From NCBI GenBank assembly GCA_041650715.1, contig JBAZKQ010000001.1:723913-787912 (forward strand): a stretch of 64,000 bases of DNA, written 5' to 3'. Shown one piece after another: positions 8,354 to 62,092 of the stretch. Position 1 is the stretch's first letter; each line of letters opens with the position of its first letter. Under the pieces are notes generated by a model. That model made no database searches, was not told where the DNA came from, and saw only the letters and a program-made list of their open reading frames with translations. This DNA is from Patescibacteria group bacterium. Its GTDB lineage: Bacteria; Patescibacteriota; Patescibacteriia; Patescibacteriales; UBA12465. Both the position numbers and the translations under genes were made by a program.

Positions 8354-10180
8354 TTATCTTTTTAGTATTTTAACAAAAGTATCAGGGGGGATATCAACGC
8401 TTCCCTTGCCCGCCGCCATCATTTTTTTCTTGCCTTTTTTCTGTTTCTCGAGTAATTTGCGTTTCCGCGTTACGTCGCCGCCGTAAAGTTTAGCGGTTAC
8501 ATCTTTGCGCATCGCCGATAATTTATCGGCGGCGATAATTTTACCGTGGAGAGCCGCTTGAATTTTCACGGCAAACATTTGACGGGGTAAGTTATTTTTT
8601 AAAATATCGACGACTTCCCGCCCCTCCCGCATCGCGTCTTCGCGGTAAACGATAGTCGCCAAGGCTTCAATCGGTTCTTCGGCGACTAAAATATCCATGC
8701 GCACGACATCGGCCGGACGATACTCGAGATATTCATAGTTAATTGAGGCGTAACCCGAGGAGACACTCTTTATCTTATCATAAAAATCGGTTAAAATCGC
8801 GGCCATCGGTATTTCGTAATGCAGAATCACTCGCGCTTCATCGCTTTCCGCCGATATATATTCCGTATTTTTATAAATACCTTTCTTTTCTTGGGATAAT
8901 TTAATGATATTACCCATATAATTTTTGGGGGTAATAACATCCAAGCTCACCCAGGGTTCTTCTATGATATCAATATGTGTCGGATCGGGCAATCGCTGCG
9001 GTGTCCGAATTATCATTTCTTCGCCGCTGCTTTTAAGAACTTTATAAGCGACGCTCGGCACGGTCACGATTAAATCTAAATTATATTCTCGGCGCAGCCT
9101 TTCTTGAAAAACCTCGAGATGCAAGAGCCCTAAAAAACCACAACGAAAGCCGAAGCCGAGCGCGTCCGATCTTTCCGGCTCATATGATAAGGCGGCGTCA
9201 TTTAATTTTAATTTTTCCATGGCTTCGCGCAGTTCCTTAAAATCATTACCTTCGCGCGGGAAAATACCAGCGAAAACCATCGGCTTAACTTCTTTATAAC
9301 CAGAAAGAGCTTCAATTTTATTAAAATTAACTACTCCGGCCTTAGCCGTCATCGTATCGCCGACTCGGCAATCGCCGACGGTTTTAAAACCGGTAATAAC
9401 ATAGCCGATTTCGCCCGGTTCAAGCACGCCGGTCGATAAATAATCGGGCTTAAAAATCCCGCAGTCGAGTACTTCACTCTCCACCCGCATGGATAGCAGG
9501 CGAATTTTGTCGCCTTTCCTAATCGCCCCGTTAAAAACGCGAACATAAGCGACAACGCCCCGATAAATATCATATTTAGAATCAAAAATCAAAGCACGCG
9601 GATAATTATCCTGATCGCCGAGCGCATCTTCCTCCGGGGGTAAGCCTTTAGCAATCACTTCGTCTAAAACTGCCGCCACGCCTTCGCCCGTTTTTCCGGA
9701 ACAGCAAAATATTTCCTCTTCTTTGCAGCCCAAAAGCTTAATGATTTCCCGTTTTGTTTTTGGAACATCGGCCGCCGGCAAATCAATTTTATTAACCACC
9801 GGAATTATCGTTAAATTTTGTTCCATGGCCAAATATAAATTCGCCAGGGTTTGCGCTTGGATGCCTTGAGTACAATCGACCAAAAGAACGGCCGTCTCGA
9901 CGGCCGCGAGCGATCGGGAAACTTCGTAAGAAAAATCAACATGGCCGGGAGTATCAATCAAATCCAATTTATAACCCTTATAATCCATGGTCACCGGCTG
10001 CAATTTAATCGTTATTCCCCGCTCCCGCTCGATATCCATGCCATCCAGAATCTGATCTTTCATTTTTCGCTTATCGACTGTGCCGGTAATTTCAAGCATA
10101 CGATCGGCCAAGGTAGATTTGCCATGATCAATATGAGCGATTATGCAGAAATTTCTGATTTTTTTTATTTCTTCTATCAT
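8354..10180 (-). CDS. lepA: translation elongation factor 4 (LepA)
   Basis: 608 aa. IRNFCIIAHIDHGKSTLADRMLE G-domain and LepA-specific C-terminus. Confidence 0.95.
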   Translation of the reverse strand: MIEEIKKIRNFCIIAHIDHGKSTLADRMLEITGTVDKRKMKDQILDGMDIERERGITIKLQPVTMDYKGYKLDLIDTPGHVDFSYEVSRSLAAVETAVLLVDCTQGIQAQTLANLYLAMEQNLTIIPVVNKIDLPAADVPKTKREIIKLLGCKEEEIFCCSGKTGEGVAAVLDEVIAKGLPPEEDALGDQDNYPRALIFDSKYDIYRGVVAYVRVFNGAIRKGDKIRLLSMRVESEVLDCGIFKPDYLSTGVLEPGEIGYVITGFKTVGDCRVGDTMTAKAGVVNFNKIEALSGYKEVKPMVFAGIFPREGNDFKELREAMEKLKLNDAALSYEPERSDALGFGFRCGFLGLLHLEVFQERLRREYNLDLIVTVPSVAYKVLKSSGEEMIIRTPQRLPDPTHIDIIEEPWVSLDVITPKNYMGNIIKLSQEKKGIYKNTEYISAESDEARVILHYEIPMAAILTDFYDKIKSVSSGYASINYEYLEYRPADVVRMDILVAEEPIEALATIVYREDAMREGREVVDILKNNLPRQMFAVKIQAALHGKIIAADKLSAMRKDVTAKLYGGDVTRKRKLLEKQKKGKKKMMAAGKGSVDIPPDTFVKILKR

Positions 10181-29754: not shown

Positions 29755-29893
29755 AAAAACCGTCAATAATCTGTAGAGCGTTATTTACCGGCCCGAAGGC
29801 TAATAAACGACGAAAAGTAAAAACATATTTAAGGAGAGAGATTGATTAAATGCGTTTTAGACTTCTCCGCTCTACAAGTTATTGGCGGTTTTT
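29755..29893. repeat. 26-nt imperfect inverted repeat (23/26) enclosing ~87 nt; terminator-like or structured RNA at the distal end of the GC-rich block
   Basis: 29755-29780 (AAAAACCGTCAATAATCTGTAGAGCG) pairs with 29868-29893 (CGCTCTACAAGTTATTGGCGGTTTTT). The inside holds a GCC-UUCG-GGC hairpin (minus-strand reading). A/T runs on both outer sides give a U-tract on either strand. Confidence 0.6.
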
Positions 29894-29898
29894 AGCTT

Positions 29899-29985
29899 AT
29901 TCTCTTCTGAAGATACCATAATTATATGATATTTTCGGGAAAGAAGCGAACAGGTGAACTGCCTGTTCGCGCTTTTTTTGAACTT
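29899..29985 (-). ncRNA. conserved intergenic element, copy A (hairpin plus second hairpin; no hammerhead core)
   Basis: Shares GUUCAA, a GCGAACAG(G)/(C)CUGUUCGC stem, CUUCUUUCCCGAAA, a covarying second hairpin and UUCAGAAGAGAA with 33568-33658. Starts 8 nt after the helicase stop. Confidence 0.55.
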
Positions 29986-32900: not shown

Positions 32901-33457
32901 CCGGAACTAACTTGCTCCTCAACCGGGTAACAACGACCGGGAATACTAATCACCGGTGCGTTGTTGAAATAAAGCGATAATTTTTCCGCTTCAAGTGTAG
33001 CGGACATAATTACCAATTTAAATTCGACGCCGCTTTCGATTTGGCGTTTCGACCAAGCAACGAGAACCTCCATATTGAGATTCCATTCGTGGACTTCGTC
33101 GAGCACCAGAATCTGGTGACGATGAGTGCCCATTAACTCTCTCACGAGAGCGAGGCCGTCCGTTACGAATAAGCAGCGCGTATTCGGTCCGTCCTGTTTT
33201 TCATAAGCAGTCCGGAATCCGATTTCGCTACCAAGTTCGCAATTACGTTCTTGGGCAACACGTTTCGCTACCGAGCGAGCGGCGAGACGACGCGGTTGAG
33301 TTACAACGAGAGAATATCCCTCGTCGAGCAAAAATTGCGGCACGCGGGTTGATTTCCCGGCGCCAGTTTCAGCGGTGATGATAACAACTGAATTGTTAAT
33401 CACTGAATTAATAATCTGGGCCCGGTAAGAATCCACGGGCAATTTCTGGTTTTTCAT
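29993..33457 (-). CDS. DEAH-box (HrpA/HrpB-like) ATP-dependent helicase with ~500-aa extra C-terminal region
   Basis: 1154 aa. TGAGKST Walker A, DEVHE motif II, SAT, QRKGRAGR motif VI, then an HA2/OB-like region to about aa 600. I could not assign the rest. Confidence 0.8.
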   Translation of the reverse strand: MKNQKLPVDSYRAQIINSVINNSVVIITAETGAGKSTRVPQFLLDEGYSLVVTQPRRLAARSVAKRVAQERNCELGSEIGFRTAYEKQDGPNTRCLFVTDGLALVRELMGTHRHQILVLDEVHEWNLNMEVLVAWSKRQIESGVEFKLVIMSATLEAEKLSLYFNNAPVISIPGRCYPVEEQVSSGNMGQDISSLLKEGRNVLAFQPGKKEIGELWSQLESYGLNAEILPLHGELEADEQDRVFRSYSRPKCVIATNVAQTSITIEDIDAVVDGGTERRIELNEGVEGLFLKAISLADRAQRKGRAGRCREGVYIDCCPTDDENRLAFPEAEILRVRLDQTVLRLAEAKIDAEELNFFHQPPQDQIHEAKQALRALGCMDESGLVTAIGRQVSRLPISVQYGRMVIAAEKYGVVDDIIDIAAILEQGGVTARKVTIGDDVMDAVDLWRPAFCPKEEDSDPMAQLAVFRGARNMSNEERRLKGVFVKAYHQARDRRQLLANALKGKISSFQSSGKREDILKALCAGMVEHLYQGSWSDYRNGDGYSRRLSNESIVNGKNWIVGQPFDLATRRGIFRLVTMATNVDTSWLVEVAPQLAKVEEGVSPKFDSEKDVCVSTRQTFFNDMLVKEEVLETPDHPEAAKIFGNWLVNKLSYGYSIDNYEFAAADNEIIKRAKELNRRAGEKIFVYPFERSEWQEFVSLKLVSAKCLAEIKVEDFLLTNIDAELEAKVLADNPDSILVNGEEISVNYNNNQAAIRINAEQAKNQIGTLSLAGGRQLRLYVDSYTSFDSFDEVNVYFENRRLEEAWRIKESELRNAPWLESGESFVALLKELQPLEYAQKDNGEKVYAFPYISLSGNSFRLAIHKDSKDAKLANRSAIISMMRALLSGEFFLESDRPWYSWGWTAMTERFQTESTRIISQVVERANAENFSELLSESRQGLRTLKANLLSENSEVGELIEEAENNFSNHFSNQSLELISEESSRFRYLVSEARSLSNEANFLEAKVKINEANNFIAGLVDLLKTRQADRDALVRANNIPAYLLNAFANDVDRALQFMDNVSKLPTRKIDAHEISCGRARVSRNLSDVWSSIGETSDFFCGADPNDVKYYVSEYHFGNDTSYEEPKQLRQENWQDKVGTSNDAMAEALRRAGLIK

Positions 33458-33567
33458 TTTTATAAGTTTTGGTTTTGAGGATGGTCAAACAAATTTAGCC
33501 AGCCTAAAAACCAAAACTAAAGGATAAATAATAACCTTATTACTATTAAGTTTTAAACGTACACTTT

Positions 33568-33658
33568 TTTCTCTTCTGAAAGCACCATTGGTAAATTTCA
33601 CTAATGATGATTTCGGGAAAGAAGCGAACAGTTTGAAAGTCTGTTCGCTCTTGAACTT
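33568..33658 (-). ncRNA. conserved intergenic element, copy B
   Basis: Paralog of 29899-29985. Lies between the DHH-motif gene stop (33727) and the helicase leader. Confidence 0.55.
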
Positions 33659-33726
33659 TTTTCTCATCCGATTTCGCTCTTAGAGATTAAAGCGCTCAAT
33701 TTAATGTCGAGAGATGACGAAAGGAT

Positions 33727-34575
33727 TTATGCCTGGGGTTTGTCGTAAGCCCCGGCAAAACCACGGCCAGCATCACCATAGGCCTGATAAAGACCGTTAG
33801 CAGCTGCCCAGCCGTTGGGATAAGTTGGCCGGCCTTCGGCCATTACGGCCTCACCGAGAAATTCGGCGACAACCGGTTTGGTACCGGACAGGTTCACCTT
33901 GTCCGGGAAACGTTTGTCTCCCTTTGCGAGATAAGGTGTGGCTGTCATGACTCCGGCCTCTACCAAAAATGGTATCGGACCCGAGTCGCGAACATCTGCT
34001 ACCTGGACACCGCCGAGCGTGACAGTTTTGGTCGGATTTTTCAGCTGCTGAACAGCGGCTTCGATTCCGGCCATAGCTTCGGCCTCCGAAGAAACGTTTT
34101 CACGTTTCATAATTTCGGGAAGACGCATGGCGAGAACTTCTTCAGCCGTAACACCAGGACACTGTCCCTGGTAGGCGGCGCCAAGACAGTGGTCTGCGGC
34201 AGCTATCACCCGGTCCTCCTGAGTTGGCTCAACTTCGAGATATTTCAGGAGTTGCCCCAATGAGGAAGCCTCGAGATACTGGCTTGGCGGTAAGCCGAAG
34301 CCAAAATTTCCTGGGTTATGATGGTCGCATTGCCCAACCATGACCAGCGAGCCGGCGGCTTTCGGAGAGCATTCAAAAATAATGCATTCCAAAGCCTCGG
34401 CGGCAGATTCGGTTGAATCCAGAACGAAGCCGTCGGCACGGTAGGCTGTCATTGGGTTGCACTTTTCGCCTGCAATTGTTGCCGTGGCTAAAAGTAAACC
34501 GTGCTGAGCGGCAATTTTGCGTGCTCTCTGCTCCTCGATGTCGGGAGCGCCGAAAATAATCACAATTTTATTCAT
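33727..34575 (-). CDS. DHH-motif protein (putative phosphoesterase), paralog 1
   Basis: 282 aa from MNKIVIIFGAPD. Contains QCDHHNPGN and AAADHC. It aligns by eye with ORF 34862..35632 (KIVIIFGAPD/KIFFIVPAND; CDHH/IDHH; SSLGQLLKYLEVE/SSIEQVAALLGVE; IAAADH/IAANDK). The track's upstream 17 codons fall inside the conserved leader hairpin, so I trimmed them. Confidence 0.6.
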   Translation of the reverse strand: MNKIVIIFGAPDIEEQRARKIAAQHGLLLATATIAGEKCNPMTAYRADGFVLDSTESAAEALECIIFECSPKAAGSLVMVGQCDHHNPGNFGFGLPPSQYLEASSLGQLLKYLEVEPTQEDRVIAAADHCLGAAYQGQCPGVTAEEVLAMRLPEIMKRENVSSEAEAMAGIEAAVQQLKNPTKTVTLGGVQVADVRDSGPIPFLVEAGVMTATPYLAKGDKRFPDKVNLSGTKPVVAEFLGEAVMAEGRPTYPNGWAAANGLYQAYGDAGRGFAGAYDKPQA

Positions 34576-34601
34576 TTTTTTCTTTTTTTCTCCGCGCACC
34601 A

Positions 34602-34656
34602 TTGCTCGGATTATTCTGTAACTCATAAATTATGAAATCCAAAATAATCCGGACAA
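34602..34656 (-). promoter_or_regulatory. conserved 5'-leader long hairpin, copy 1
   Basis: Arms 34602-34615 and 34643-34656 (minus strand UUGUCCGGAUUAUU / AAUAAUCCGAGCAA) enclose a 27-nt loop containing CAUAAUUUAUG. About 100 nt of leader is near-identical to 36580-36690. Confidence 0.6.
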
Positions 34657-34723
34657 TATGCTCCTTAAAAATGAAACAAATTTTTAGGTCTTTCTATTTC
34701 TATATTTTTCTATCAAAGAACAT

Positions 34724-34776
34724 TTCCATTTCGTCGTTTCCGACTCATCAGCACTGATACACATCAGTGGATGGAA
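34724..34776 (-). ncRNA. type III hammerhead ribozyme (HHR-1)
   Basis: Minus strand: UUCCAUC|CACUGAU-GUGU-AUCAGUG-CUGAUGA-GUCG-GAAA-CGAC-GAAA-UGGAA. All core invariants are present (C3-A9, G12-A14, A15.1:U16.1, C17, G10.1:C11.1). Stems I, II and III are 7, 4 and 6 bp. Confidence 0.9.
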
Positions 34777-34861
34777 GAGCAAGTTTAAACGGCTTGCTCT
34801 TTTGAACTTTTTTTTGCTGGCCAACGCCAATTACTCCGCAAAAGAGAGTATGATTTTGAAA

Positions 34862-35632
34862 TTATTTTTGCCAGAAAAATTCCAAAATCTTGACCTGGGT
34901 TTCTGGAGTGGGTTTTTCCACTCCCGAGAATCCATTCTTCGGATCACCACCGGCCCAGCGAGCGAATGTCGTTCCATCCTCAGTGAGAGCATAAAACTGC
35001 ATGTGCCGTGGACCGAAATAAATCCATTTTCCATTGAGGCCGTCAACGGTCAGAAGTTCAGCGTACTGACCAAAAATGCGGTCGGTAATTGCCGAAGTGG
35101 AGCCCTTTGGGCAACGGACAAACCATTTTTCGCCCCGGATTTCAGCCGACCGGATATCAGCTACTGCTTGGGCCTCTTGATCAGGAGTGACGCCCTGCGA
35201 CAAGCGGTCTTGGGCACGAACAATTTTAATTTCGTTTTCAGTTGCGCCCATCGCCCTTAATGCCGGAATGTATCCTTTATCATTGGCGGCGATAAGGAGT
35301 TGATGGTGAGTAAGTTCTACTCCCAAAAGAGCGGCCACCTGCTCGATTGAGGATTTTTCGTTGAAACGATTTTCATCACGGTAAATGTGATGATCAATAT
35401 TAATTGCGTTCCAACGAGCGAGCCCGCCCAGTTCAACCCCGTAAATCACGGCCGAAGGATTAGCGGATAAAACTCCCTCAACTTTTTCAACCACGGTTTG
35501 TTCTAACCTGGCCCAGGTTGCTCCCCAGGCTTGACGGGTAACTACGTGACTGATTTTAGCGGCCTGAAGAATTTTACGGATTTCTACCGCTTCGCCATCA
35601 TTAGCTGGCACTATGAAAAAAATTTTTTCCAT
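34862..35632 (-). CDS. DHH-motif protein (putative phosphoesterase), paralog 2
   Basis: 256 aa. Contains NIDHH and AANDKGY. Start is coupled to the upstream stop (UAAUG). Confidence 0.6.
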   Translation of the reverse strand: MEKIFFIVPANDGEAVEIRKILQAAKISHVVTRQAWGATWARLEQTVVEKVEGVLSANPSAVIYGVELGGLARWNAINIDHHIYRDENRFNEKSSIEQVAALLGVELTHHQLLIAANDKGYIPALRAMGATENEIKIVRAQDRLSQGVTPDQEAQAVADIRSAEIRGEKWFVRCPKGSTSAITDRIFGQYAELLTVDGLNGKWIYFGPRHMQFYALTEDGTTFARWAGGDPKNGFSGVEKPTPETQVKILEFFWQK

Positions 35633-36063
35633 TACACAAAGTTTAATTGGCCACCAAGCTCATAAGCAACGGCGTCCTGGTTGGTTAAAACTTTTATCTC
35701 TTCGGCGAGCGAAGCTAAGTTCTTCCGAACTTTACTGGCTATGCCTATACCCCAGAGAATCCAAATATATTCAATTTGAACCACTCCGTTTTCGGATAGT
35801 ACCCACATACCGCTAGCCGGGGTTTCATTGCTGAACCCCAAACTCTTAGCATGTTCACGTAGCTTCTGGACGTGCTCGGTTGCCACCGGCTCACCAGTTT
35901 TTTGTAGAGTTGGGATATATAGGGCATCCCGTCCCCCTTTAAATTCTTCTCCGAGTTCCGAAAGTTCTTCAGTGGAATATGTCCACCAACCGATTTCCGG
36001 TTCAAGAGTACACCCACCAGCTCTAAGAGCCGCCTCAAGAGGCGACTTTGCTAAATATTTCAT
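35632..36063 (-). CDS. hypothetical protein (143 aa)
   Basis: The ORF starts 24 nt after HHR-2 and its stop overlaps the next start. No motif recognised. Confidence 0.55.
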   Translation of the reverse strand: MKYLAKSPLEAALRAGGCTLEPEIGWWTYSTEELSELGEEFKGGRDALYIPTLQKTGEPVATEHVQKLREHAKSLGFSNETPASGMWVLSENGVVQIEYIWILWGIGIASKVRKNLASLAEEIKVLTNQDAVAYELGGQLNFV

Positions 36064-36087
36064 CTACCGCGTTGTTTTAATGAACAT

Positions 36088-36140
36088 TTCCGTTTCGTCG
36101 TTTCCGACTCATCAGCACCGACATACATCGGTTGACGGAA
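36088..36140 (-). ncRNA. type III hammerhead ribozyme (HHR-2)
   Basis: Minus strand: UUCCGUC|AACCGAU-GUAU-GUCGGUG-CUGAUGA-GUCG-GAAA-CGAC-GAAA-CGGAA. Core and stem II are identical to HHR-1. Stems I and III carry compensatory changes. Confidence 0.9.
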
Positions 36141-36180
36141 GAGCAAGTTTGAACGACTTGCTCTTTTTTGAACGCCCTTG

Positions 36181-36579
36181 CTATTTAGCCTTGGGCCGAA
36201 AATCCAAGTACTCGAACTCCACTTCCAAAAAAGTGAGTTGAGTTGTTGACTGGCCCAATTTTTTCGCGGTCCTTTTCAGAACCTTGAGAGTCGCGGCTTT
36301 GTAGGCCGCTAATTCGGTGTATTCCGGATTACATTCGCCAGTGATGGCGACTGTAATTTCACCTCCGACAGGGCAGCCCCAGTCTTTGTGATAAACCGTG
36401 CGCGCCGACGTAATCACGGCTCCAACATAGGTGCCGTATTTTTTCATAACTGCGGCCGCTGATTGCTGCCATGCTTTTGCAGCGATTTCCACTGCATTGT
36501 CGGCAGTAATCACTGCATTGTCGTGGCCATAGCCTGCAACAACTCCCAGGCTGGCAAAAAATTTACTGGTTTTTTTCAT
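36181..36579 (-). CDS. hypothetical protein (132 aa)
   Basis: ORF preceded by the conserved leader hairpin and an A-rich tract. No motif recognised. Confidence 0.55.
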   Translation of the reverse strand: MKKTSKFFASLGVVAGYGHDNAVITADNAVEIAAKAWQQSAAAVMKKYGTYVGAVITSARTVYHKDWGCPVGGEITVAITGECNPEYTELAAYKAATLKVLKRTAKKLGQSTTQLTFLEVEFEYLDFRPKAK

Positions 36580-36606
36580 TTTTTTCTTTTTTCGTCCGCG
36601 ACACCA

Positions 36607-36661
36607 TTGTCCGGATTATTCTGTAGTCCATAAATTATGAAATTCAAAATAATCCGGACAA
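36607..36661 (-). promoter_or_regulatory. conserved 5'-leader long hairpin, copy 2
   Basis: Perfect 14-bp arms at 36607-36620 and 36648-36661 (UUGUCCGGAUUAUU / AAUAAUCCGGACAA). Confidence 0.6.
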
Positions 36662-36719
36662 TATGATCCACAAAAAATGAAAAATCTTTTTCGACTATTC
36701 AATTTCAAAGAACTTTTTT

Positions 36720-37668
36720 TCCTCTACCTAATCTAATTAATCTATTCTGAGGAAGTTCCCGAGTCCCAAGCTTGTTCAAGGCTTAATGGCTCGGCCGATC
36801 TCCTCATAAGAGACGGTCACGATTGTCGCTTTTCTCCGAGCCTTTTCTCCTTTCGGAAATACGGCCACAAGATACTTGGATCGCCTGCGCCCTTGATTAT
36901 AGTTTGCGACATAATCTCGGGATCAGCTCGACTAACCGTTTATTCTTTCCGGTCCGTAGGCCACGAAAGAAGCAAACGAATGAGCGCTTGCTGGTCTTAG
37001 GAAATGAACTCTCTCCCTGACTCGCAATTTTTGCGAGCAGATGTTAATTCATCTTAATCTCCTAAAATCGACACTAATCGCTCGATAATTTTTTTATTAT
37101 TTATGTACGATAGATTATTCCTTAATCTAATTAGGAGAACGGTTTAACCGCCGTTCTTTCGGCTCTCCGCTAAGCGGATAGTGATGAAGGGGAGAAACGA
37201 ATACATTATTTTGTGGCGCGCATGGGGCTGCACCGCTCTCTCTCCTCTCCATTACTATTCACTCAACAAAAAACTCTCTATTATGGAGAGAGCAAAGTTC
37301 CTATATATGCGGGCGCGCCTTAGCTTAATCAAGCCTCTGCGCTCACGTATATATCTTGGTTTTAAATAATGGCTCTCTCCTTCCATTACTTTTCTATTTG
37401 TAAATGTTCGTCTCGACTTCTCGCCCGGCTCTTGGCCTGGGCATTAGCGGAGACTGGGTCTCTCTTATCTTATTGATAAGGGATGGCCACTCGCCGTTAA
37501 GGCTTTCCCTGTTCTTACCCTTCGGATTGGACTACCACCATGCTCTCTCCTTCATAATGGTCGTCACTCTAACCCAGCTAAGTATAGAATCGGGGAGTGA
37601 TATCTCTTTATTAATGAATGTACTGGGATGTGTCCGAATGTCTCTTTGCCTTTTCTCACTTTCGATAC
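36720..37668 (-). ncRNA. candidate large structured non-coding RNA or long leader (no ORF of 60 aa or more on this strand)
   Basis: Lies downstream of the minus-strand promoter at 37701-37673. Dense local hairpins. Three GGAGAGAG-containing repeats (plus coordinates 37538-37560, 37367-37390, 37233-37256) and a complementary GCUCUCUCC (37285-37293). Class unknown. Confidence 0.45.
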
Positions 37669-37672
37669 TAAC

Positions 37673-37701
37673 AGTTTAGCATAGATATTTAATCTTGTCA
37701 A
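37673..37701 (-). promoter_or_regulatory. sigma70-like promoter facing the GC-rich block
   Basis: Minus strand TTGACA (37701-37696), 17-nt spacer, TAAACT (37678-37673). Confidence 0.55.
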
Positions 37702-37797
37702 TACTAAATCTTACATTTTATTGCTATTGTTAGCAAAACAGCGGACAGTATTGAGTAAAATAGGCATATTTATTTACTAAAAGTGTCATTATTTGAG

Positions 37798-37826
37798 TTG
37801 ACACCTATATTTAAATTTGCTATAAT
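37798..37826 (+). promoter_or_regulatory. consensus sigma70 promoter of the TrmB-like gene
   Basis: TTGACA (37798-37803), 17 nt, TATAAT (37821-37826). The -10 is embedded in palindromes GCTATAATATAGC and TATAGCTATA. Confidence 0.7.
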
Positions 37827-37911
37827 ATAGCTATAAACTACTATTTCGCTTGACGCCTAATAAGCGCAAACGAAATAAAAATCATTATTTGTAAAGTTAT
37901 CCCCAACCCAT

Positions 37912-38700
37912 ATGAACGAAAAAATCTTAATTAGTCTCGGTTTAAGCGGTGTACAAGCAGAGGTTTTTAGTTGCCTGCTCCAAAACGGACCGCAAAAAGC
38001 CAGTGATATCGCCAAATTAACCAAGCGCCCCCGCGGTGTCGCCTACAAAGGCTTAGAGGAATTGATTAGCTTGGGTCTGGCCAATAAAAAAGAAGCAAAG
38101 GCCGGTATAGCTGTCTTCGCGGCTGAGCACCCCTCGAATCTCGAGAAGGTCATAGAACAAAAAGAAAAAGACCTGGCTAAAACCAAGTCTGCTTTTGCGA
38201 GCTCCCTGCCCGATCTGATATCGACTTTCAATCTTGTCAGCAATAAGCCAGGAGTTAGATTTTATGAGGGGGAGGAAGGAATTAAAAAATCCCTGGAAGA
38301 TACCTTAAATTGCCAAGACATAATTTATACTTTTGCTGACATCGAGGCCGTTGAAAAAAACGTCAAAGAAATTAATGACGCTTACGCTAAAAAGAGGGAG
38401 AAGGCACAAATTAAAAAAAGAGTTATCGTCGCCGATACTCCTTTTAATCGCTCTTATTTAAAAAATTATAATGGCACTATTACCGAGTTTCGTTTTCTCC
38501 CCAAAGATTTTTACAGTTTTAACAGCGGCGTGCAAATTTATGAAAATAAAGTTTCTTATCAAGTAATTTCGGCGGAGAATAAGATGGCTATTATTATTGA
38601 AGACAAAAATATATACCAAATGAATAAGCTTTTATTTGAGTTTATCTGGGAAAAATTGGCAACTAAAATTAATGATTCTTCTCAAACGCCAAATACCTAA
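37912..38700 (+). CDS. TrmB-family HTH transcriptional regulator (paralog 1)
   Basis: 262 aa. N-terminal wHTH (LGLSGVQAEVFSCLLQNGPQKASDIAKLTKRPRGVAYKGLEELISLGL). The shared block PGVRFYEGEEGIKKSLEDTL matches ORF 52657..53430. Confidence 0.75.
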   Translation: MNEKILISLGLSGVQAEVFSCLLQNGPQKASDIAKLTKRPRGVAYKGLEELISLGLANKKEAKAGIAVFAAEHPSNLEKVIEQKEKDLAKTKSAFASSLPDLISTFNLVSNKPGVRFYEGEEGIKKSLEDTLNCQDIIYTFADIEAVEKNVKEINDAYAKKREKAQIKKRVIVADTPFNRSYLKNYNGTITEFRFLPKDFYSFNSGVQIYENKVSYQVISAENKMAIIIEDKNIYQMNKLLFEFIWEKLATKINDSSQTPNT

Positions 38701-61777: not shown

Positions 61778-62092
61778 GCCTCGGTAGCTCAGTGGTAGAG
61801 CAAAGGACTGGTTTTCGGTCCGCTCAATGGAAACATTGAGATGAAAATCGGGTGAATTCGGGGAAGCCTTAATTTAGAAATAAAAAAGGTAATCCCGAGC
61901 CAAGCTTTAATTGGGTAAATAATTAAAGAAGGTGTAGAGACTAGCGGGTGAGCCCAACAATAACCCCGCCGCGAGCGCCCGACTCCGTCCTTAAAAATTA
62001 AGCGGAGATGATATAGTCCGATCCTTAAGGAAACTTAAGTTGTAGCAAGGAAAATCCTTGTGTCGTCAGTTCGATTCTGACCCGGGGCACCA
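61778..62092 (+). tRNA. tRNA-Phe(GAA) interrupted by a group I intron; CCA encoded
   Basis: Exons 61778-61809 and 62050-62092 join to GCCUCGGUAGCUCAGUGGUAGAGCAAAGGACU|GAAAAUCCUUGUGUCGUCAGUUCGAUUCUGACCCGGGGCACCA. This makes a normal cloverleaf with anticodon GAA. Confidence 0.85.
61810..62049 (+). ncRNA. group I intron (IC3-like) in the tRNA-Phe anticodon loop
   Basis: P1 pairs exon GGACU with the intron guide GGUCC (61817-61821), with a U.G wobble at the 5' splice site. The intron ends in G. Core strings AAUUCGGGGAAGCCUUAA, AAUCCCGAGCCAAGCU and GAAGGUGUAGAGACUAG match tRNA-borne IC3 introns (Azoarcus tRNA-Ile, cyanobacterial tRNA-Leu) as I recall them. Confidence 0.85.

What the first reader, a model, noticed from the sequence alone, without database searches (positions are those of the whole stretch)
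36720..37668. About 1 kb of ORF-free, hairpin-dense sequence downstream of a promoter: candidate large structured RNA
A TTGACA-17-TAAACT promoter on the minus strand points into roughly 1.07 kb that has no minus-strand ORF of 60 aa or more and ends at the conserved leader of the 132-aa gene. The region has many GC-rich local hairpins, for example:
- GCCCAGGC-CAAGA-GCCGGGC;
- CUUAUC-AAUAA-GAUAAG;
- GAGAC-CCA-GUCUC;
- AUAUAUAC...GCUU-GAUU-AAGC...GCAUAUAUAG.
It also has three dispersed repeats of (AGU)AAUGGA(A)GGAGAGAG (plus coordinates 37538-37560, 37367-37390, 37233-37256) and one complementary GCUCUCUCC (37285-37293) that could pair with them. I found none of the hallmark strings of RNase P RNA, tmRNA, SRP RNA or group II intron domain V. 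Large ncRNAs such as GOLLD and ROOL are known from mobile or prophage contexts, which makes this location suggestive, but the class here is unknown.
Basis: partly seen in the sequence, partly recalled or inferred. Interest (0 to 1): 0.78.

Follow-up and report, generated by a model that had tools for sequence, protein, structure and literature searches.

The report
New large modular RNA in Patescibacteria
A roughly 1-kb stretch without genes in an ultra-small (Patescibacteria) bacterium is a real, conserved, intricately folded RNA that matches no catalogued family; it heads a variable gene island cut up by hammerhead ribozymes and probably controls that island.

Summary
Window 37668→~36695 (minus strand) lies behind a conserved TTGACA-17-TAAACT promoter. 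It has no conserved ORF and no Pfam hit.

About 20 distinct homologues exist, all from Patescibacteria MAGs or metagenomes. In the 330-nt 3' core, 94% of cells pair (35-52% in slid controls) and 32 of 65 pairs show compensatory changes. G·U outnumbers A·C 169:29, which fixes the strand. No Rfam 15 family, phage record, plasmid record or paper matches it.

The RNA is modular (0.25-1.15 kb). It carries 1-4 paralogous GGAGAGAG modules, each pairing with a pyrimidine tract. One module combines this pairing with a hairpin plus U-run, so it looks like a conditional terminator. At the 3' end, one strand has two alternative partners, supported by a three-way compensatory change.

It always lies divergent from a TrmB-like gene. 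Downstream is a co-oriented, hypervariable island (SAM-AMP lyase, NrN, Crn2-like and Csx3-like genes) punctuated by type III hammerheads.

Best reading (about 0.5): a new class of giant cis-acting leader gating that operon. Function is inferred, not shown.

The parts
37673..37701 (-). Promoter TTGACA-17-TAAACT with an extended -10 TG. The inferred transcription start is near 37668-37665.
   Evidence: 10 of 12 matches. Conserved in homologues. The start site is inferred from spacing, not measured.
37565..37668 (-). 5' leader. It begins with the conserved GUAUCGAAAGUGAGA; the rest is present only in some homologues.
   Evidence: Alignment A2. The 5' motif was used to find RNA starts in 12 loci.
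37395..37561 (-). Module A. It has a 9-bp hairpin ACCAUUAUG/CAUGGUGGU with the loop AAGGAGAGAG (37561-37534). Local hairpins follow at 37480-37464, 37462-37450 and 37442-37423. The whole module is absent from many homologues.
37267..37390 (-). Module B. Its parts, in order:
- hairpin AAUGG/CCAUU with the loop AAGGAGAGAG (37390-37365);
- a variable hairpin (37355-37301);
- GCUCUCUCC (37293-37285), which can pair either with the loop (antiterminator/pseudoknot) or with AGAGAG to form a hairpin followed by U6 (37293-37267).
   Evidence: The terminator-like site was found by the scan. The alternative pairing is the minimum-free-energy structure in 6 homologues, and a hairpin plus U4-U7 is kept in all B-containing homologues with unrelated stems. 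A stand-alone copy occurs in phage locus L073.
37111..37260 (-). Module C. A long irregular helix joins GAAUAGUAAUGGAGAGGAGAGAG (37260-37238) to CUCCCCUUCAUCACUAUCC (37194-37176) and encloses a hairpin. Three conserved hairpins follow, at 37177-37167, 37168-37134 and 37129-37111.
   Evidence: Two size classes exist, about 85 and about 178 nt.
36806..37083 (-). Conserved 3' core.
- Helix P1 (37083-37047 with 37008-36982) carries GGGAGAGAG (37017-37009) in an internal loop.
- Helices 3-8 follow.
- GUUUGC (36977-36972) and GCAAAC (36907-36902) are invariant and complementary.
   Evidence: Alignment A4 and its consensus fold. Pair counts with controls. The GUUUGC/GCAAAC pairing is inferred from invariance and complementarity, and both are kept in the divergent L061.
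36805..36815 (-). Pyrimidine tract CGUCUCUUAUG. UCUCUU (36813-36808) is the proposed pseudoknot partner of GAGAGA (37015-37010).
   Evidence: 98% of cells pair; A-U changes to G-C together in 4 sequences. Support is modest because both tracts are repetitive.
36749..36805 (-). 3' terminal domain. Helix P9 pairs GAGGAG with CUUCCUC. The P10 hairpin has the invariant loop CCUUGAACAAG (36781-36771).
   Evidence: Helices 9 and 10 (100% and 92.5% of cells paired; 6 compensatory pairs in helix 10). P9 covaries as GAAGAG/CUUCUUC in L056. This is the only core part kept in the short L056 variant.
36695..36758 (-). Tail. GAACUUCCUC...GAGGAAAAAAAGUUC forms an alternative helix that re-uses the 3' strand of P9. 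The junction GUUCUUUGAAAUUGAAUAG (36713-36695) follows. The same junction follows each hammerhead in the island.
   Evidence: the helix is predicted in most homologues. The L056 tail changes to GAAGAG in step with P9. The junction is compared with the hammerhead units.
36606..36662 (-). Context: a 57-nt near-perfect palindrome between the RNA and the first gene, repeated at 34601-34657 upstream of the 299-aa gene. It is either an RNA hairpin (a possible processing site) or a DNA operator; this is undecided.
   Evidence: repeats D2, I1, I2. It is conserved, with a change in both arms, in homologues.
36075..36173 (-). Context: hammerhead unit 1, after the 132-aa SAM-AMP lyase gene (36181-36579). 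The order is GUUCA, a hairpin with loop CGUUCAA, the type III hammerhead, then the junction.
34710..34807 (-). Context: hammerhead unit 2, after the 256-aa NrN-like gene (34862-35632).
   Evidence: Rfam RF00008 gives 41.4 bits, E = 1.8e-6, below the gathering score of 48.5.
37912..38700 (+). Context: a divergent TrmB-family regulator gene with a perfect consensus promoter (37798-37826). It is next to the RNA in every locus that holds the upstream flank.

Best explanation
**What is shown.** Window about 37668 to 36749 (or 36695), minus strand, encodes a previously uncatalogued, conserved, multi-pseudoknotted RNA found in a clade of Patescibacteria.
- It has its own strong promoter.
- It is modular. 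Homologues carry 1-4 paralogous units in which an exposed purine strand (A/G)GGAGAGAG is presented by an AUG(R).../...(Y)CAU helix and matched by a pyrimidine tract. Most also carry a roughly 330-nt conserved core and a 3' terminal domain.

**What is inferred.** It acts in cis as the giant promoter-proximal leader of a long, co-oriented, hammerhead-punctuated operon. That operon consists of a hypervariable island of genes for enzymes that degrade second messengers, followed by an Hrp-type RNA helicase gene. The leader would gate read-through or processing by alternative pairings at two places.
1. In module B, the GGAGAGAG loop pairs with GCUCUCUCC as the nascent RNA emerges. This prevents the hairpin-plus-U6 terminator from forming. 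Anything that occupies the loop (a protein, another RNA or a ligand-dependent fold) would restore termination.
2. At the 3' end, the strand CUUCCUC pairs either with GAGGAG, which closes the folded terminal domain, or with the downstream GAGGAA, which forms the tail helix at the cassette junction.

The effector is unknown.
For: **Structure is real and on this strand.**
- 17 sequences: 94.1% of cells pair against 35-52% when partners are slid.
- 32 of 65 pairs show compensatory change against 8-14 in the slid controls; 0 of 500 shuffles reach any measure.
- 169 G·U cells against 29 A·C cells.

**Non-coding.**

**No known family.**

**Leader position.**
- The next gene downstream is co-oriented in all 14 loci examined, 24-360 nt after the core.
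- Between 37701 and the bidirectional terminator at about 29946-29970, the scans find no minus-strand promoter better than 9 of 12 outside coding sequence, and no minus-strand terminator above chance.
- The RNA's tail ends in the same GGAA-GUUCUUUGAAA junction that follows each hammerhead of the island.

**Switch 1.**
- A terminator-like hairpin plus U-run lies inside the RNA.
- A hairpin plus U4-U7 is kept in all B-containing homologues despite unrelated stems.
- In each, a pyrimidine tract in or at that hairpin is complementary to the invariant loop (CUCUCUCC, CUCUUUCC, GCUUUCUC). The long-range pairing is the minimum-free-energy structure in six of them.
- The same two-part element occurs alone, just upstream of replication genes, in a bona fide phage.

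**Switch 2.** Most homologues can form the tail helix. In L056, P9 and the tail change together: GAAGAG/CUUCUUC/GAAGAG instead of GAGGAG/CUUCCUC/GAGGAA.
Against: - No transcript data exist. Co-transcription, the 3' end and conditional termination are all inferred.
- The roughly 330-nt core, with its invariant loops and probable pseudoknots, is far more elaborate than any known attenuator needs. It has no assigned role in this model.
- The tail helix is not followed by a proper U-run, so it is not a canonical terminator.
- In phage L073 the complement lies in the terminator loop, not the stem. Pairing would therefore not necessarily prevent termination.
- The 57-nt palindrome between the RNA and the first gene could be an RNase III-type site that releases the RNA as a free molecule.
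- Variants lacking the core (L068) or most modules (L056) show that no single part is indispensable.
- The sequences come from related genomes in conserved synteny, so the 14 of 14 co-orientation is not 14 independent observations.
Confidence: 0.5

Rival explanations
1. It is a stand-alone, trans-acting RNA released from the primary transcript. Its repeated, exposed AAGGAGAGAG loops bind several copies of one partner, acting as a sponge or scaffold. The partner could be a protein, or the pyrimidine-rich 3' end of 16S rRNA, since AAGGAG is a canonical Shine-Dalgarno sequence. Its invariant UUGAAC loop might also dock onto the GUUCA loops of the hairpins that end each hammerhead-processed mRNA.
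For: - Each RNA has 1-4 copies of the motif, and extra copies have been gained inside other hairpins (L039, L042).
- The same decaloop on covarying stems occurs in 13 unrelated phage contigs that have no complementary tract nearby, which suggests a trans partner.
- None of 42 genes in the window has a Shine-Dalgarno sequence, so four perfect ones in one RNA stand out.
- The terminal loop CCUUGAACAAG is invariant. It is the reverse complement of the GUUCA(A) found in the loop of 30 of 32 hairpins that precede hammerheads, whose stems covary.
- A 57-nt palindromic hairpin that could be a processing site separates the RNA from the first gene.
Against: - In the Patescibacteria RNAs, each purine strand has an intramolecular partner.
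- The invariant AGAG after AAGGAG would not pair with a standard anti-Shine-Dalgarno sequence. This rests on established knowledge; no 16S sequence is in the window to check.
- L068 has GUUCA loops but no UUGAAC loop in its RNA.
- No partner protein has been identified.
Confidence: 0.25
2. It is a riboswitch-like sensor of a nucleotide second messenger (SAM-AMP or a cyclic oligoadenylate). The ligand would stabilise the purine/pyrimidine pseudoknots and switch on the downstream enzymes that degrade it. This is a special case of the leader model.
For: - The downstream genes are a SAM-AMP lyase (profile against PDB 9lqd/9gad, E = 3e-38) and NrN (PDB 9lq9, E = 1.5e-19).
- Other loci carry STIV_B116-like/Crn2-type and Csx3-like genes.
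- The modules have H-type pseudoknot geometry. Several small riboswitch classes use this geometry (established knowledge).
Against: - Island content varies, and several loci with the RNA have no recognisable messenger-degrading gene next to it (L050, L054, L045).
- No known aptamer matches.
- The RNA is far larger than any known riboswitch.
- Ligand binding is wholly untested.
Confidence: 0.1
3. It is a self-assembling 'ornate' RNA in the manner of ROOL, GOLLD or OLE. It would form homo-oligomers through its invariant, self-complementary loop (CUUG-AA-CAAG), independently of the neighbouring genes.
For: - Its size, many helices and probable pseudoknots fit.
- The 3' half is conserved and the 5' half is variable, as recalled for GOLLD.
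- The invariant loop CUUGAACAAG is a palindrome, and the single change in L056 (CAGG) keeps pairing through G·U.
- It is adjacent to a variable, conflict-type island.
Against: - It matches no Rfam model.
- Short variants lack most of the RNA.
- Its position at the head of an operon is strictly conserved.
- Oligomerisation rests on one loop only.
Confidence: 0.08
4. It is a decayed protein gene or a small-peptide locus, or a DNA-level element (recombination or attachment site, operator array) rather than an RNA.
For: - It lies at the edge of a hypervariable island.
- AUG precedes three of the GGAGAGAG repeats.
- Short ORFs of 41-45 aa exist.
Against: - No reading frame is conserved, indels are not in threes, and there is no Pfam hit.
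- The compensatory changes keep base pairs, with a strong G·U over A·C asymmetry. A DNA-level or coding constraint would not produce that.
- No integrase lies nearby.
Confidence: 0.03

Closest known systems
Large 'ornate' bacterial RNAs of unknown function (GOLLD, ROOL, OLE)
   Same: - Hundreds of nucleotides to about 1 kb long.
- Many helices, with probable pseudoknots.
- Strong covariation.
- The 3' part is conserved and the 5' part variable, as recalled for GOLLD.
- It neighbours variable or mobile-type gene content.
   Different: - It matches none of their covariance models.
- It is found only in Patescibacteria so far.
- It is built from repeated GGAGAGAG modules.
- It has a fixed position at the head of a co-oriented operon.
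- Short natural variants of 0.25-0.3 kb exist.
Transcription-attenuating leaders (riboswitches, PyrR- or TRAP-type protein-dependent attenuators, T-box)
   Same: - It is promoter-proximal, upstream of co-oriented genes.
- It has an internal hairpin plus U-run with a mutually exclusive upstream partner (module B).
- It has a second pair of alternative helices at the 3' end.
   Different: - It is three to ten times larger.
- It has no known aptamer or binding-site consensus.
- The effector is unknown.
- The antiterminator strand sits in a hairpin loop, giving pseudoknot geometry.
- The core has no counterpart.
Processive antitermination signals (lambda nut boxB before tR1, HK022 put, Bacillus EAR)
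   Same: - A hairpin with a defined purine-rich loop lies shortly after a promoter and just before a terminator, at the head of a long operon.
- The stand-alone phage copy (L073) sits before the replication genes, like nutR-tR1 in lambda. The lambda comparison is from memory.
   Different: - The loop sequence and size differ.
- The loop is complementary to the terminator region, which nut sites are not.
- No N-like protein was identified.
- It does not match the EAR family in Rfam.
CsrB/RsmZ-type protein-sequestering RNAs
   Same: It has several stem-loops presenting a GGA-containing purine motif.
   Different: - Each motif has an internal pairing partner.
- There is a large, highly conserved core.
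- It matches none of those families.
- No CsrA gene was looked for or found.
Hammerhead-rich gene neighbourhoods (the 'RAGATH' setting used by the Breaker and Weinberg groups to find new RNAs)
   Same: It sits in an array of type III hammerheads between small genes. The weak chance-level hits to RAGATH-22 and RAGATH-25 are not evidence.
   Different: The RNA itself has no self-cleaving ribozyme signature and matches no RAGATH family.

Membership tests
Any Rfam 15 family (including GOLLD, ROOL, OLE, HEARO, raiA, RNase P RNA, tmRNA, SRP RNA, group I/II introns, riboswitches, EAR, CsrB/Rsm) | Scores at or near the family's gathering threshold against its covariance model. | tested here: not met
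   Nothing in the region reaches gathering thresholds. At E up to 10 there are only microRNA-type and other chance hits of 29 bits or less. No hit lies on the RNA in six homologous loci at E up to 1.
tRNA / tmRNA | ARAGORN detects a cloverleaf or tRNA-like domain. | tested here: not met
   No gene was found in 33000-38500.
Protein-coding gene or pseudogene | A reading frame or protein similarity is conserved among homologues. | tested here: not met
Conserved structured RNA (generic) | Base pairs are maintained by compensatory substitutions beyond what controls give. | tested here: met
   94.1% paired against 35-52% in slid controls; 32 against 8-14 compensatory pairs; 0 of 500 shuffles reach the observed values. 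One search gives the G·U strand asymmetry.
Terminator-based attenuator leader | It lies between a promoter and co-oriented genes, with no strong intervening promoter. | tested here: met
   These are consensus scans only.
Terminator-based attenuator leader | A G+C-containing hairpin is followed by a U-run inside the leader. | tested here: met
   Window 37293-37267. A hairpin plus U4-U7 occurs in all B-containing homologues and in phage L073.
Terminator-based attenuator leader | An alternative pairing excludes the terminator. | tested here: inconclusive
   GGAGAGAGC pairing with GCUCUCUCC competes with the terminator stem in the window-type sequences. In L007-type sequences the complement is in the apical stem. 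In L073 it is in the loop, where pairing need not prevent the stem.
Terminator-based attenuator leader | An identified effector makes termination conditional. | not testable with these tools
   This needs in vitro transcription or in vivo reporters. No candidate effector was identified.
Processive antitermination RNA (nut / put / EAR) | A partner protein or a direct RNA polymerase modification allows read-through of several downstream terminators. | not testable with these tools
   Only positional resemblance was seen.
Self-assembling ornate RNA (ROOL / GOLLD type) | It forms homo-oligomers. | not testable with these tools
   The only hint is the palindromic invariant loop CUUGAACAAG.
Hammerhead ribozyme type III (the neighbouring elements, not the RNA itself) | It has the CUGAUGA and GAAA cores, three helices with helix III open, and a cleavage site NUH. 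| tested here: met
   Two copies in the window have exact cores. The Rfam alignment shows all helices. There are 32 distinct units in related loci. The scores (35-41 bits for five of the six; the L045 5971-6019 copy scores 29.3) are below the gathering score of 48.5, and cleavage is untested.

The most novel reading that the evidence does not exclude
The RNA is the organising component of a new RNA-centred system. A large modular RNA uses its invariant UUGAAC loop to dock onto the GUUCA-loop hairpins that cap every hammerhead-processed messenger of the adjacent island. It uses its repeated AAGGAGAGAG loops to recruit a common cellular partner. In this way it couples processing, stability or translation of a swappable set of genes for messenger-degrading (anti-signalling) enzymes in ultra-small bacteria. 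The same decaloop hairpin in unrelated phages would then be a widespread, still unnamed recognition signal.
Probability: 0.15. Interest if true: 0.92.

Novelty: categorically new. Interest (0 to 1): 0.8.

Why it matters
- **Rarity.** Large, highly structured bacterial RNAs are rare, and each class found so far (RNase P, group I/II introns, OLE, GOLLD, ROOL, HEARO/omega RNA) has opened new biology. This one occupies about 1 kb in a genome of well under 1 Mb, behind a near-consensus promoter. That implies strong selection.
- **Setting.** It is tied to three other little-understood things:
  - an array of hammerhead ribozymes acting as gene punctuation;
  - an island of SAM-AMP lyase, NrN and ring-nuclease-like genes with no cas genes in sight;
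  - a decaloop hairpin shared with phages.
- **Testability.**
  - The sequence set and secondary-structure model given here are enough to build a covariance model.
  - They are also enough to search all Patescibacteria genomes.
  - They allow direct experiments on termination, processing, binding and cryo-EM.
- **If it is a leader.** It would be by far the largest attenuator-type leader known.
- **If it is free-standing.** It would be a new ornate RNA class from the candidate phyla radiation.

Tried and rejected
- **Rfam searches.** Run at gathering thresholds on the window, at E up to 10 on the region, on six homologous loci, on the phage copies and on distant loci of the 132-aa family. No family covers the RNA.
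- **Nucleotide similarity.** blastn against INPHARED phages and PLSDB plasmids gave no match. The core pattern gave 0 hits in IMG/VR.
- **Pseudogene or peptide reading.** Rejected.
- **tRNA-like, tmRNA, CRISPR array or tandem repeat.** Rejected.
- **Distant relatives of the flanking gene.** An nhmmer profile of the core was run against all loci of more distant 132-aa homologues (Clostridium, Bacillus, Peribacillus, Alphaproteobacteria MAGs, other Parcubacteria). There was no copy, so the RNA is not a general companion of that gene.
- **A helix closing the whole RNA.** A 5'-end/3'-end helix (GUGAGA with UCUUAY) was considered and dropped, because the changes in L007 and L008 are not compensatory (reading).
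- **All-against-all covariation scan.** Run on a 15-sequence full-length alignment. Only helices of 5 or more columns are credible; the short long-range candidates are noise from two-clade structure.
- **Terminal loop pairing with the downstream GUUC junction.** Rejected, because the junction is GAAC or GUAC in many homologues.
- **The tail as a canonical terminator.** Rejected for lack of a U-run.
- **Literature.** Searches for a described Patescibacteria large RNA, or for hammerheads in Parcubacteria, found nothing.
- **16-mer search in IMG/VR.** It returned 67 hits. Of the 67, 27 have only the minimal 3-bp stem and several are ordinary ribosome-binding sites or otherwise look like chance hits. 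Only L073 and a 13-contig phage family have long covarying stems.
Full report
**1. What is in the sequence**

Read on the minus strand, the window has a near-consensus promoter: TTGACA at 37701-37696, a 17-nt spacer with TG, and TAAACT at 37678-37673 (10 of 12 matches). About 1 kb follows in which no minus-strand ORF exceeds 45 aa. The region ends at a 57-nt palindrome (36662-36606) just before a 132-aa gene (36579-36181).

So are the three GGAGAGAG repeats and the complementary GCUCUCUCC at 37293-37285. A fourth repeat, GGGAGAGAG at 37017-37009, was missed. Four of the six RGGAGAGRG matches in the 64-kb window lie in this RNA, against 0.69 expected; 0 of 100 shuffles reach six.

The predicted folding energy is 9.4 standard deviations below dinucleotide shuffles, but equally so on both strands. 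That statistic shows dense self-complementarity and does not pick a strand.

Rfam 15 gives nothing in the region at gathering thresholds and only chance-level hits at E up to 10. ARAGORN and Tandem Repeats Finder give nothing relevant.

**2. Where it comes from and who else has it**

The 132-aa protein is found, with exactly the same sequence, on a 758-kb metagenome contig. NCBI labels it as from a Patescibacteria group bacterium. Homologous DNA was collected in three ways:
- anchoring on that protein in one genome per species;
- scanning metagenome contigs with an invariant string of the RNA itself, GAGGAGATCG-N12-14-CCTTGAACAAG;
- looking up contigs of further protein homologues.

This yielded about 20 distinct copies, all from Parcubacteria/Patescibacteria MAGs or freshwater/groundwater-type metagenomes.

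A profile of the core finds exactly one copy per locus. It finds none in loci of more distant homologues of the 132-aa protein, including Clostridium, Bacillus, Peribacillus, Alphaproteobacteria MAGs and other Parcubacteria. There is no similar DNA in the phage and plasmid collections. The core pattern is absent from IMG/VR. Literature searches found no description.

**3. It is a structured RNA, on this strand, and not a gene**

The 3' third (window 37083-36745) aligns across 17 sequences; 14 are 68-79% identical to the window by blastn, and the most divergent (L007, L008) align only in pieces. The RNAalifold consensus has 65 pairs in 10 helices. Counted on that alignment:

| Measure | Observed | Partners slid 1-3 columns | Column shuffles |
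|---|---|---|---|
| Cells forming a standard pair | 94.1% | 35-52% | mean 85.8% |
| Pairs with a change on both sides | 32 of 65 | 8-14 | mean 16.4 |
| Covariation score | 0.365 | 0.07-0.13 | mean 0.209 |

None of 500 shuffles reaches any observed measure.

The pairs contain 169 G·U cells but only 29 A·C cells. The same structure on the opposite strand would drop to 81% paired. Together with the promoter, this fixes the minus strand.

No reading frame is conserved. The longest stop-free runs are 40-98 codons on the RNA strand and 46-122 on the other, at different places in different homologues. Whole hairpins come and go. The ORFs have no Pfam match. The pseudogene reading is rejected.

**4. 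Architecture**

Lengths from the -10 box to the end of the tail range from about 325 nt (L056, L068) through 530-960 nt to 1150 nt (L039); the window copy is about 975 nt. The promoter and the first 15 nt (GUAUCGAAAGUGAGA) are conserved. After that the RNA is a chain of modules that are present or absent as blocks.

- **Modules A and B.** These are hairpins (ACCAUUAUG/CAUGGUGGU and AAUAAUGG/CCAUUAUU) with the identical 10-nt loop AAGGAGAGAG. The closing pair covaries (G-C to A-U).
- **Module C.** This is a long irregular helix in which GGAGAGGAGAGAG pairs with CUCCCCUUC. It has a short and a long form.
- **Module D.** This opens the conserved core. An AUGAAU/GUUCAU helix covaries to AUGGAC/GUCCAU. 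GGGAGAGAG sits in its internal loop next to an inserted hairpin, and in L039 and L042 that hairpin has itself acquired another AAGGAGAGAG loop.

All four modules share the pattern AUG(R)...GGAGAGAG...(Y)CAU, so they look like paralogues.

In D, the purine strand (37015-37010) can pair with UCUCUU (36813-36808) just before the terminal domain. On the alignment, 98% of cells pair, and A-U changes to G-C together in four sequences. This is modest evidence because both tracts are repetitive.

GUUUGC (36977-36972) and the hairpin loop GCAAAC (36907-36902) are both invariant and complementary. Both survive in the otherwise very divergent L061. I infer a second pseudoknot. It conflicts with alifold helix 2, which has no compensatory support.

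The 3' terminal domain (36805-36749) is the most conserved part and the only core part kept in L056. Helix P9 pairs GAGGAG with CUUCCUC. An internal loop follows, then a hairpin with the invariant loop CCUUGAACAAG.

**5. Two places where one strand has two partners**

*(a) Module B.*
- The scan independently flags 37293-37273 as a terminator-like hairpin (GCUCUCUCC-AUAAU-AGAGAG) followed by UUUUUUG.
- The 5' strand of that hairpin is the exact complement of the upstream loop (GGAGAGAGC). In the window and five homologues the long-range pairing is the minimum-free-energy structure.
- Every homologue that has module B keeps a hairpin followed by U4-U7, although the stems belong to at least two unrelated types: a short CUCUCUCC/AGAGAG type and a long GGGUGUUGGGUGG...CCGCCUAACACCC type.
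- Every one also keeps a pyrimidine tract able to pair with the invariant loop (CUCUCUCC, CUCUUUCC, GCUUUCUC) in or at that hairpin.
- By my estimate such a tract would occur by chance within 150 nt in roughly one sequence in eight. Its presence in three structurally different contexts is therefore unlikely to be accidental.

*(b) The 3' end.*
- The strand (A/U)(C/U)UUCCUC closes P9. It can instead pair with a downstream GAGG(A/G)AA across a variable hairpin, and most homologues are predicted to form this tail helix.
- In L056 all three strands differ together: GAAGAG, CUUCUUC and GAAGAG.
- The tail is followed by GUUCUUUGAAAUUGAAUAG, not by a U-run, so it is not a canonical terminator.

**6. 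Surroundings**

Upstream and divergent, in every locus that holds that flank, is a TrmB-family regulator gene with a perfect consensus promoter. Beyond it lies a large GNAT-domain protein gene.

Downstream, always co-oriented, is a gene set that differs from genome to genome. It ends at an HrpA/HrpB-like DEAH helicase and FtsK.

In the window the first genes are as follows.

| Gene | Identification | Evidence |
|---|---|---|
| 132 aa | SAM-AMP lyase | Family profile against PDB 9lqd/9gad, E = 3e-38; PADLOC Mvol_0529 family |
| 143 aa | Unknown | - |
| 256 aa | NrN phosphodiesterase | PDB 9lq9, E = 1.5e-19; PADLOC DHH_CorA |
| 299 aa | Unknown | - |

Other loci add STIV_B116-like (DUF1874, the Crn2/AcrIII-1 fold), P-loop proteins with a weak Csx3 match, MoxR/VWA pairs, DHH proteins and a radical-SAM enzyme. 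SAM-AMP lyase and NrN are the enzymes that degrade the type III CRISPR messenger SAM-AMP, and a phage copy has been proposed as an anti-CRISPR (PMC12255297). No cas gene is called in any of the loci examined. In Clostridium the same family does sit next to CRISPR arrays.

Between the island genes lie type III hammerheads on the same strand as the RNA. Two are in the window, with exact CUGAUGAG...CGAAA cores. One is found by Rfam at 41.4 bits, E = 1.8e-6, below the gathering score of 48.5. Related loci hold 32 distinct units.

Each hammerhead is preceded by a 9-11-bp hairpin whose stem sequence varies freely. In 30 of 32 cases its loop contains (G/A)UU(C/U)A. Each is followed by GGAA-(N)-GUUCWUUGAAA, the same junction that follows the big RNA. 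The RNA therefore occupies the first slot of a repeated cassette grammar.

Consensus scans find no better minus-strand promoter and no above-chance minus-strand terminator between 37701 and the bidirectional terminator at about 29946-29970. None of 42 genes in the window has a Shine-Dalgarno sequence.

**7. The decaloop outside Patescibacteria**

A 20-mer for the module B hairpin hits one IMG/VR contig. There the element stands alone:
- hairpin UCUUAAUGG/CCAUUAAGA with loop AAGGAGAGAG;
- a small hairpin;
- a 10-bp G+C-rich hairpin plus U5 whose 10-nt loop contains the exact complement CUCUCUCC.

The contig is a real phage, with Erf, Gam, primase-helicase, terminase and portal genes. The element lies just upstream of the replication genes.

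A looser 16-mer gives 67 hits, about what chance and ordinary ribosome-binding sites would give. However, 13 GC-rich phage contigs carry the same loop on a long covarying stem (CCCAGGACUGG/CCAGUCCUGGG, CCCCGUACCUGG/CCAGGUACGGGG and others). In these the hairpin is followed by ACUACUAUCA-hairpin-UGAUAGUAG-GGACGGG, directly after a conserved gene, and has no complementary tract nearby. Rfam has no family for either. The loop is thus a recognition element with a wider distribution than this RNA.

**8. Interpretation**

*Shown:* a new, conserved, strand-specific, multi-domain structured RNA with its own promoter, restricted so far to one Patescibacteria clade, in fixed synteny.

*Inferred, in decreasing order of support:*
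1. It is the promoter-proximal, non-coding first unit of the island's transcript.
2. Module B is a conditional terminator in which the nascent loop captures the pyrimidine strand before the terminator can form. An agent that occupies the loop would restore termination.
3. The folding state of the core and terminal domain decides between P9 and the tail helix at the cassette junction.

I put about 0.5 on this cis-acting leader model.

*Main rival (0.25):* a released, trans-acting RNA whose loops bind a common partner. Its UUGAAC loop might kiss the GUUCA loops that cap the hammerhead-processed messengers. The complementarity is striking, but L068 has the GUUCA loops without a UUGAAC loop.

*Other rivals:* a second-messenger riboswitch (0.1) and a ROOL/GOLLD-like self-assembling particle (0.08) remain open. 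A coding or DNA-level reading is essentially excluded. The role of the 330-nt core is unexplained by any of these.

**9. Novelty and verdict**

The RNA fails the membership test for every catalogued family, and nothing like it was found in the literature searched. Parts of it work like known attenuators. As an entity, a modular roughly 1-kb RNA built of GGAGAGAG pseudoknot units at the head of a hammerhead-punctuated operon in the candidate phyla radiation, it is new. The finding is real and worth experimental follow-up. Interest is 0.8.

Noticed in passing
window 36173-36075 and 34807-34710 (minus strand); also L039, L007, L045, L054, L056, L068 and others: Type III hammerhead ribozymes punctuate the gene island: 2 in the window and 32 distinct units in related loci. 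Each is preceded by a covarying 9-11-bp hairpin with a conserved (G/A)UU(C/U)A loop. Each is followed by a GGAA-GUUCWUUGAAA junction. Rfam scores are below the gathering threshold: 35-41 bits for five of the six hits and 29.3 bits for the L045 5971-6019 copy, against 48.5.
   Followed up: partly
window 36579-36181 (132 aa) and 35632-34862 (256 aa): These genes are close sequence relatives of the solved SAM-AMP lyase (PDB 9lqd/9gad, E = 3e-38) and NrN (PDB 9lq9, E = 1.5e-19). They lie in a Patescibacteria chromosome with no cas gene called within 10 kb in any locus. Neighbouring loci swap in STIV_B116-like (Crn2/AcrIII-1 fold), Csx3-like P-loop, DHH, MoxR/VWA and radical-SAM genes. This looks like a hypervariable island of messenger-degrading, anti-signalling genes.
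   Followed up: partly
L073 about 9440-9560 (minus); L131, L134, L128, L095, L104, L076, L091, L137, L116, L093, L112, L102, L139: A hairpin with the 10-nt loop AAGGAGAGAG recurs in phages. One copy stands alone with a terminator whose loop is the exact complement CUCUCUCC, upstream of replication genes. Thirteen GC-rich phage contigs carry the loop on a long covarying stem followed by ACUACUAUCA...UGAUAGUAG...GGACGGG. No Rfam family covers either.
   Followed up: partly
window 36662-36606 and 34657-34601: A 57-nt near-perfect palindrome (AUUGUCCGGAUUAUU...AAUAAUCCGGACAAU) lies just upstream of the 132-aa and 299-aa genes. Both arms change together in homologues. In L061 it is replaced by two copies of a different 12-bp palindrome (ACCGATATTGGT). 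It could be an RNA processing hairpin or a DNA operator; this is undecided.
   Followed up: no
window, upstream 30 nt of 42 genes: Essentially no gene in the window has a Shine-Dalgarno sequence; the leaders are A/U-rich. The four AAGGAG/GAGGAG/GGGAG motifs inside the RNA are the strongest Shine-Dalgarno-like strings in the region.
   Followed up: partly
window 61778-62092 (plus strand): A tRNA gene is split by a group I intron (Rfam RF00028, 93 bits, 61801-62040) and is missed by ARAGORN. The exon halves are readable by eye: GCCTCGGTAGCTCAGTGGTAGAGCAAAGGACTG...intron...AATCCTTGTGTCGTCAGTTCGATTCTGACCCGGGGCACCA. This fits the recently reported group I introns in Patescibacteria tRNA genes (PMC13011429).
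   Followed up: partly
window 37780-37830 and homologues (alignment A2): The intergenic region shared with the divergent TrmB-like gene holds inverted repeats over both -35 boxes: GTGTCA-N10-TGACAC in the window and TTGACA-N4-TGTCAA in most homologues. These are likely operators of the TrmB-like regulator, which may therefore control the RNA promoter.
   Followed up: no
L006 5493-5750, L042 8387-8641, L008 2657-2908, L050 6011-6289 (coordinates in the RNA-sense orientation): A small conserved ORF of about 85 aa (...SAMQ(I/V)ALL.AGLG... / ...MSDIQ..L.NAGL...) lies directly after the RNA in several loci but is absent from the window.
   Followed up: no
L072 10001-10384: A distant SAM-AMP-lyase-family homologue (46% identity) sits inside a TerD/TerC, PRTase, nucleoside deoxyribosyltransferase-like and vWA-TerF cluster. 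This is a quite different nucleotide-centred conflict context.
   Followed up: no
window 29832-29840 (plus strand): One of the only two AGGAGAGAG-type matches outside the RNA lies in the gap between the FtsK and Hrp-helicase genes, near the bidirectional terminator at 29946-29970.
   Followed up: no
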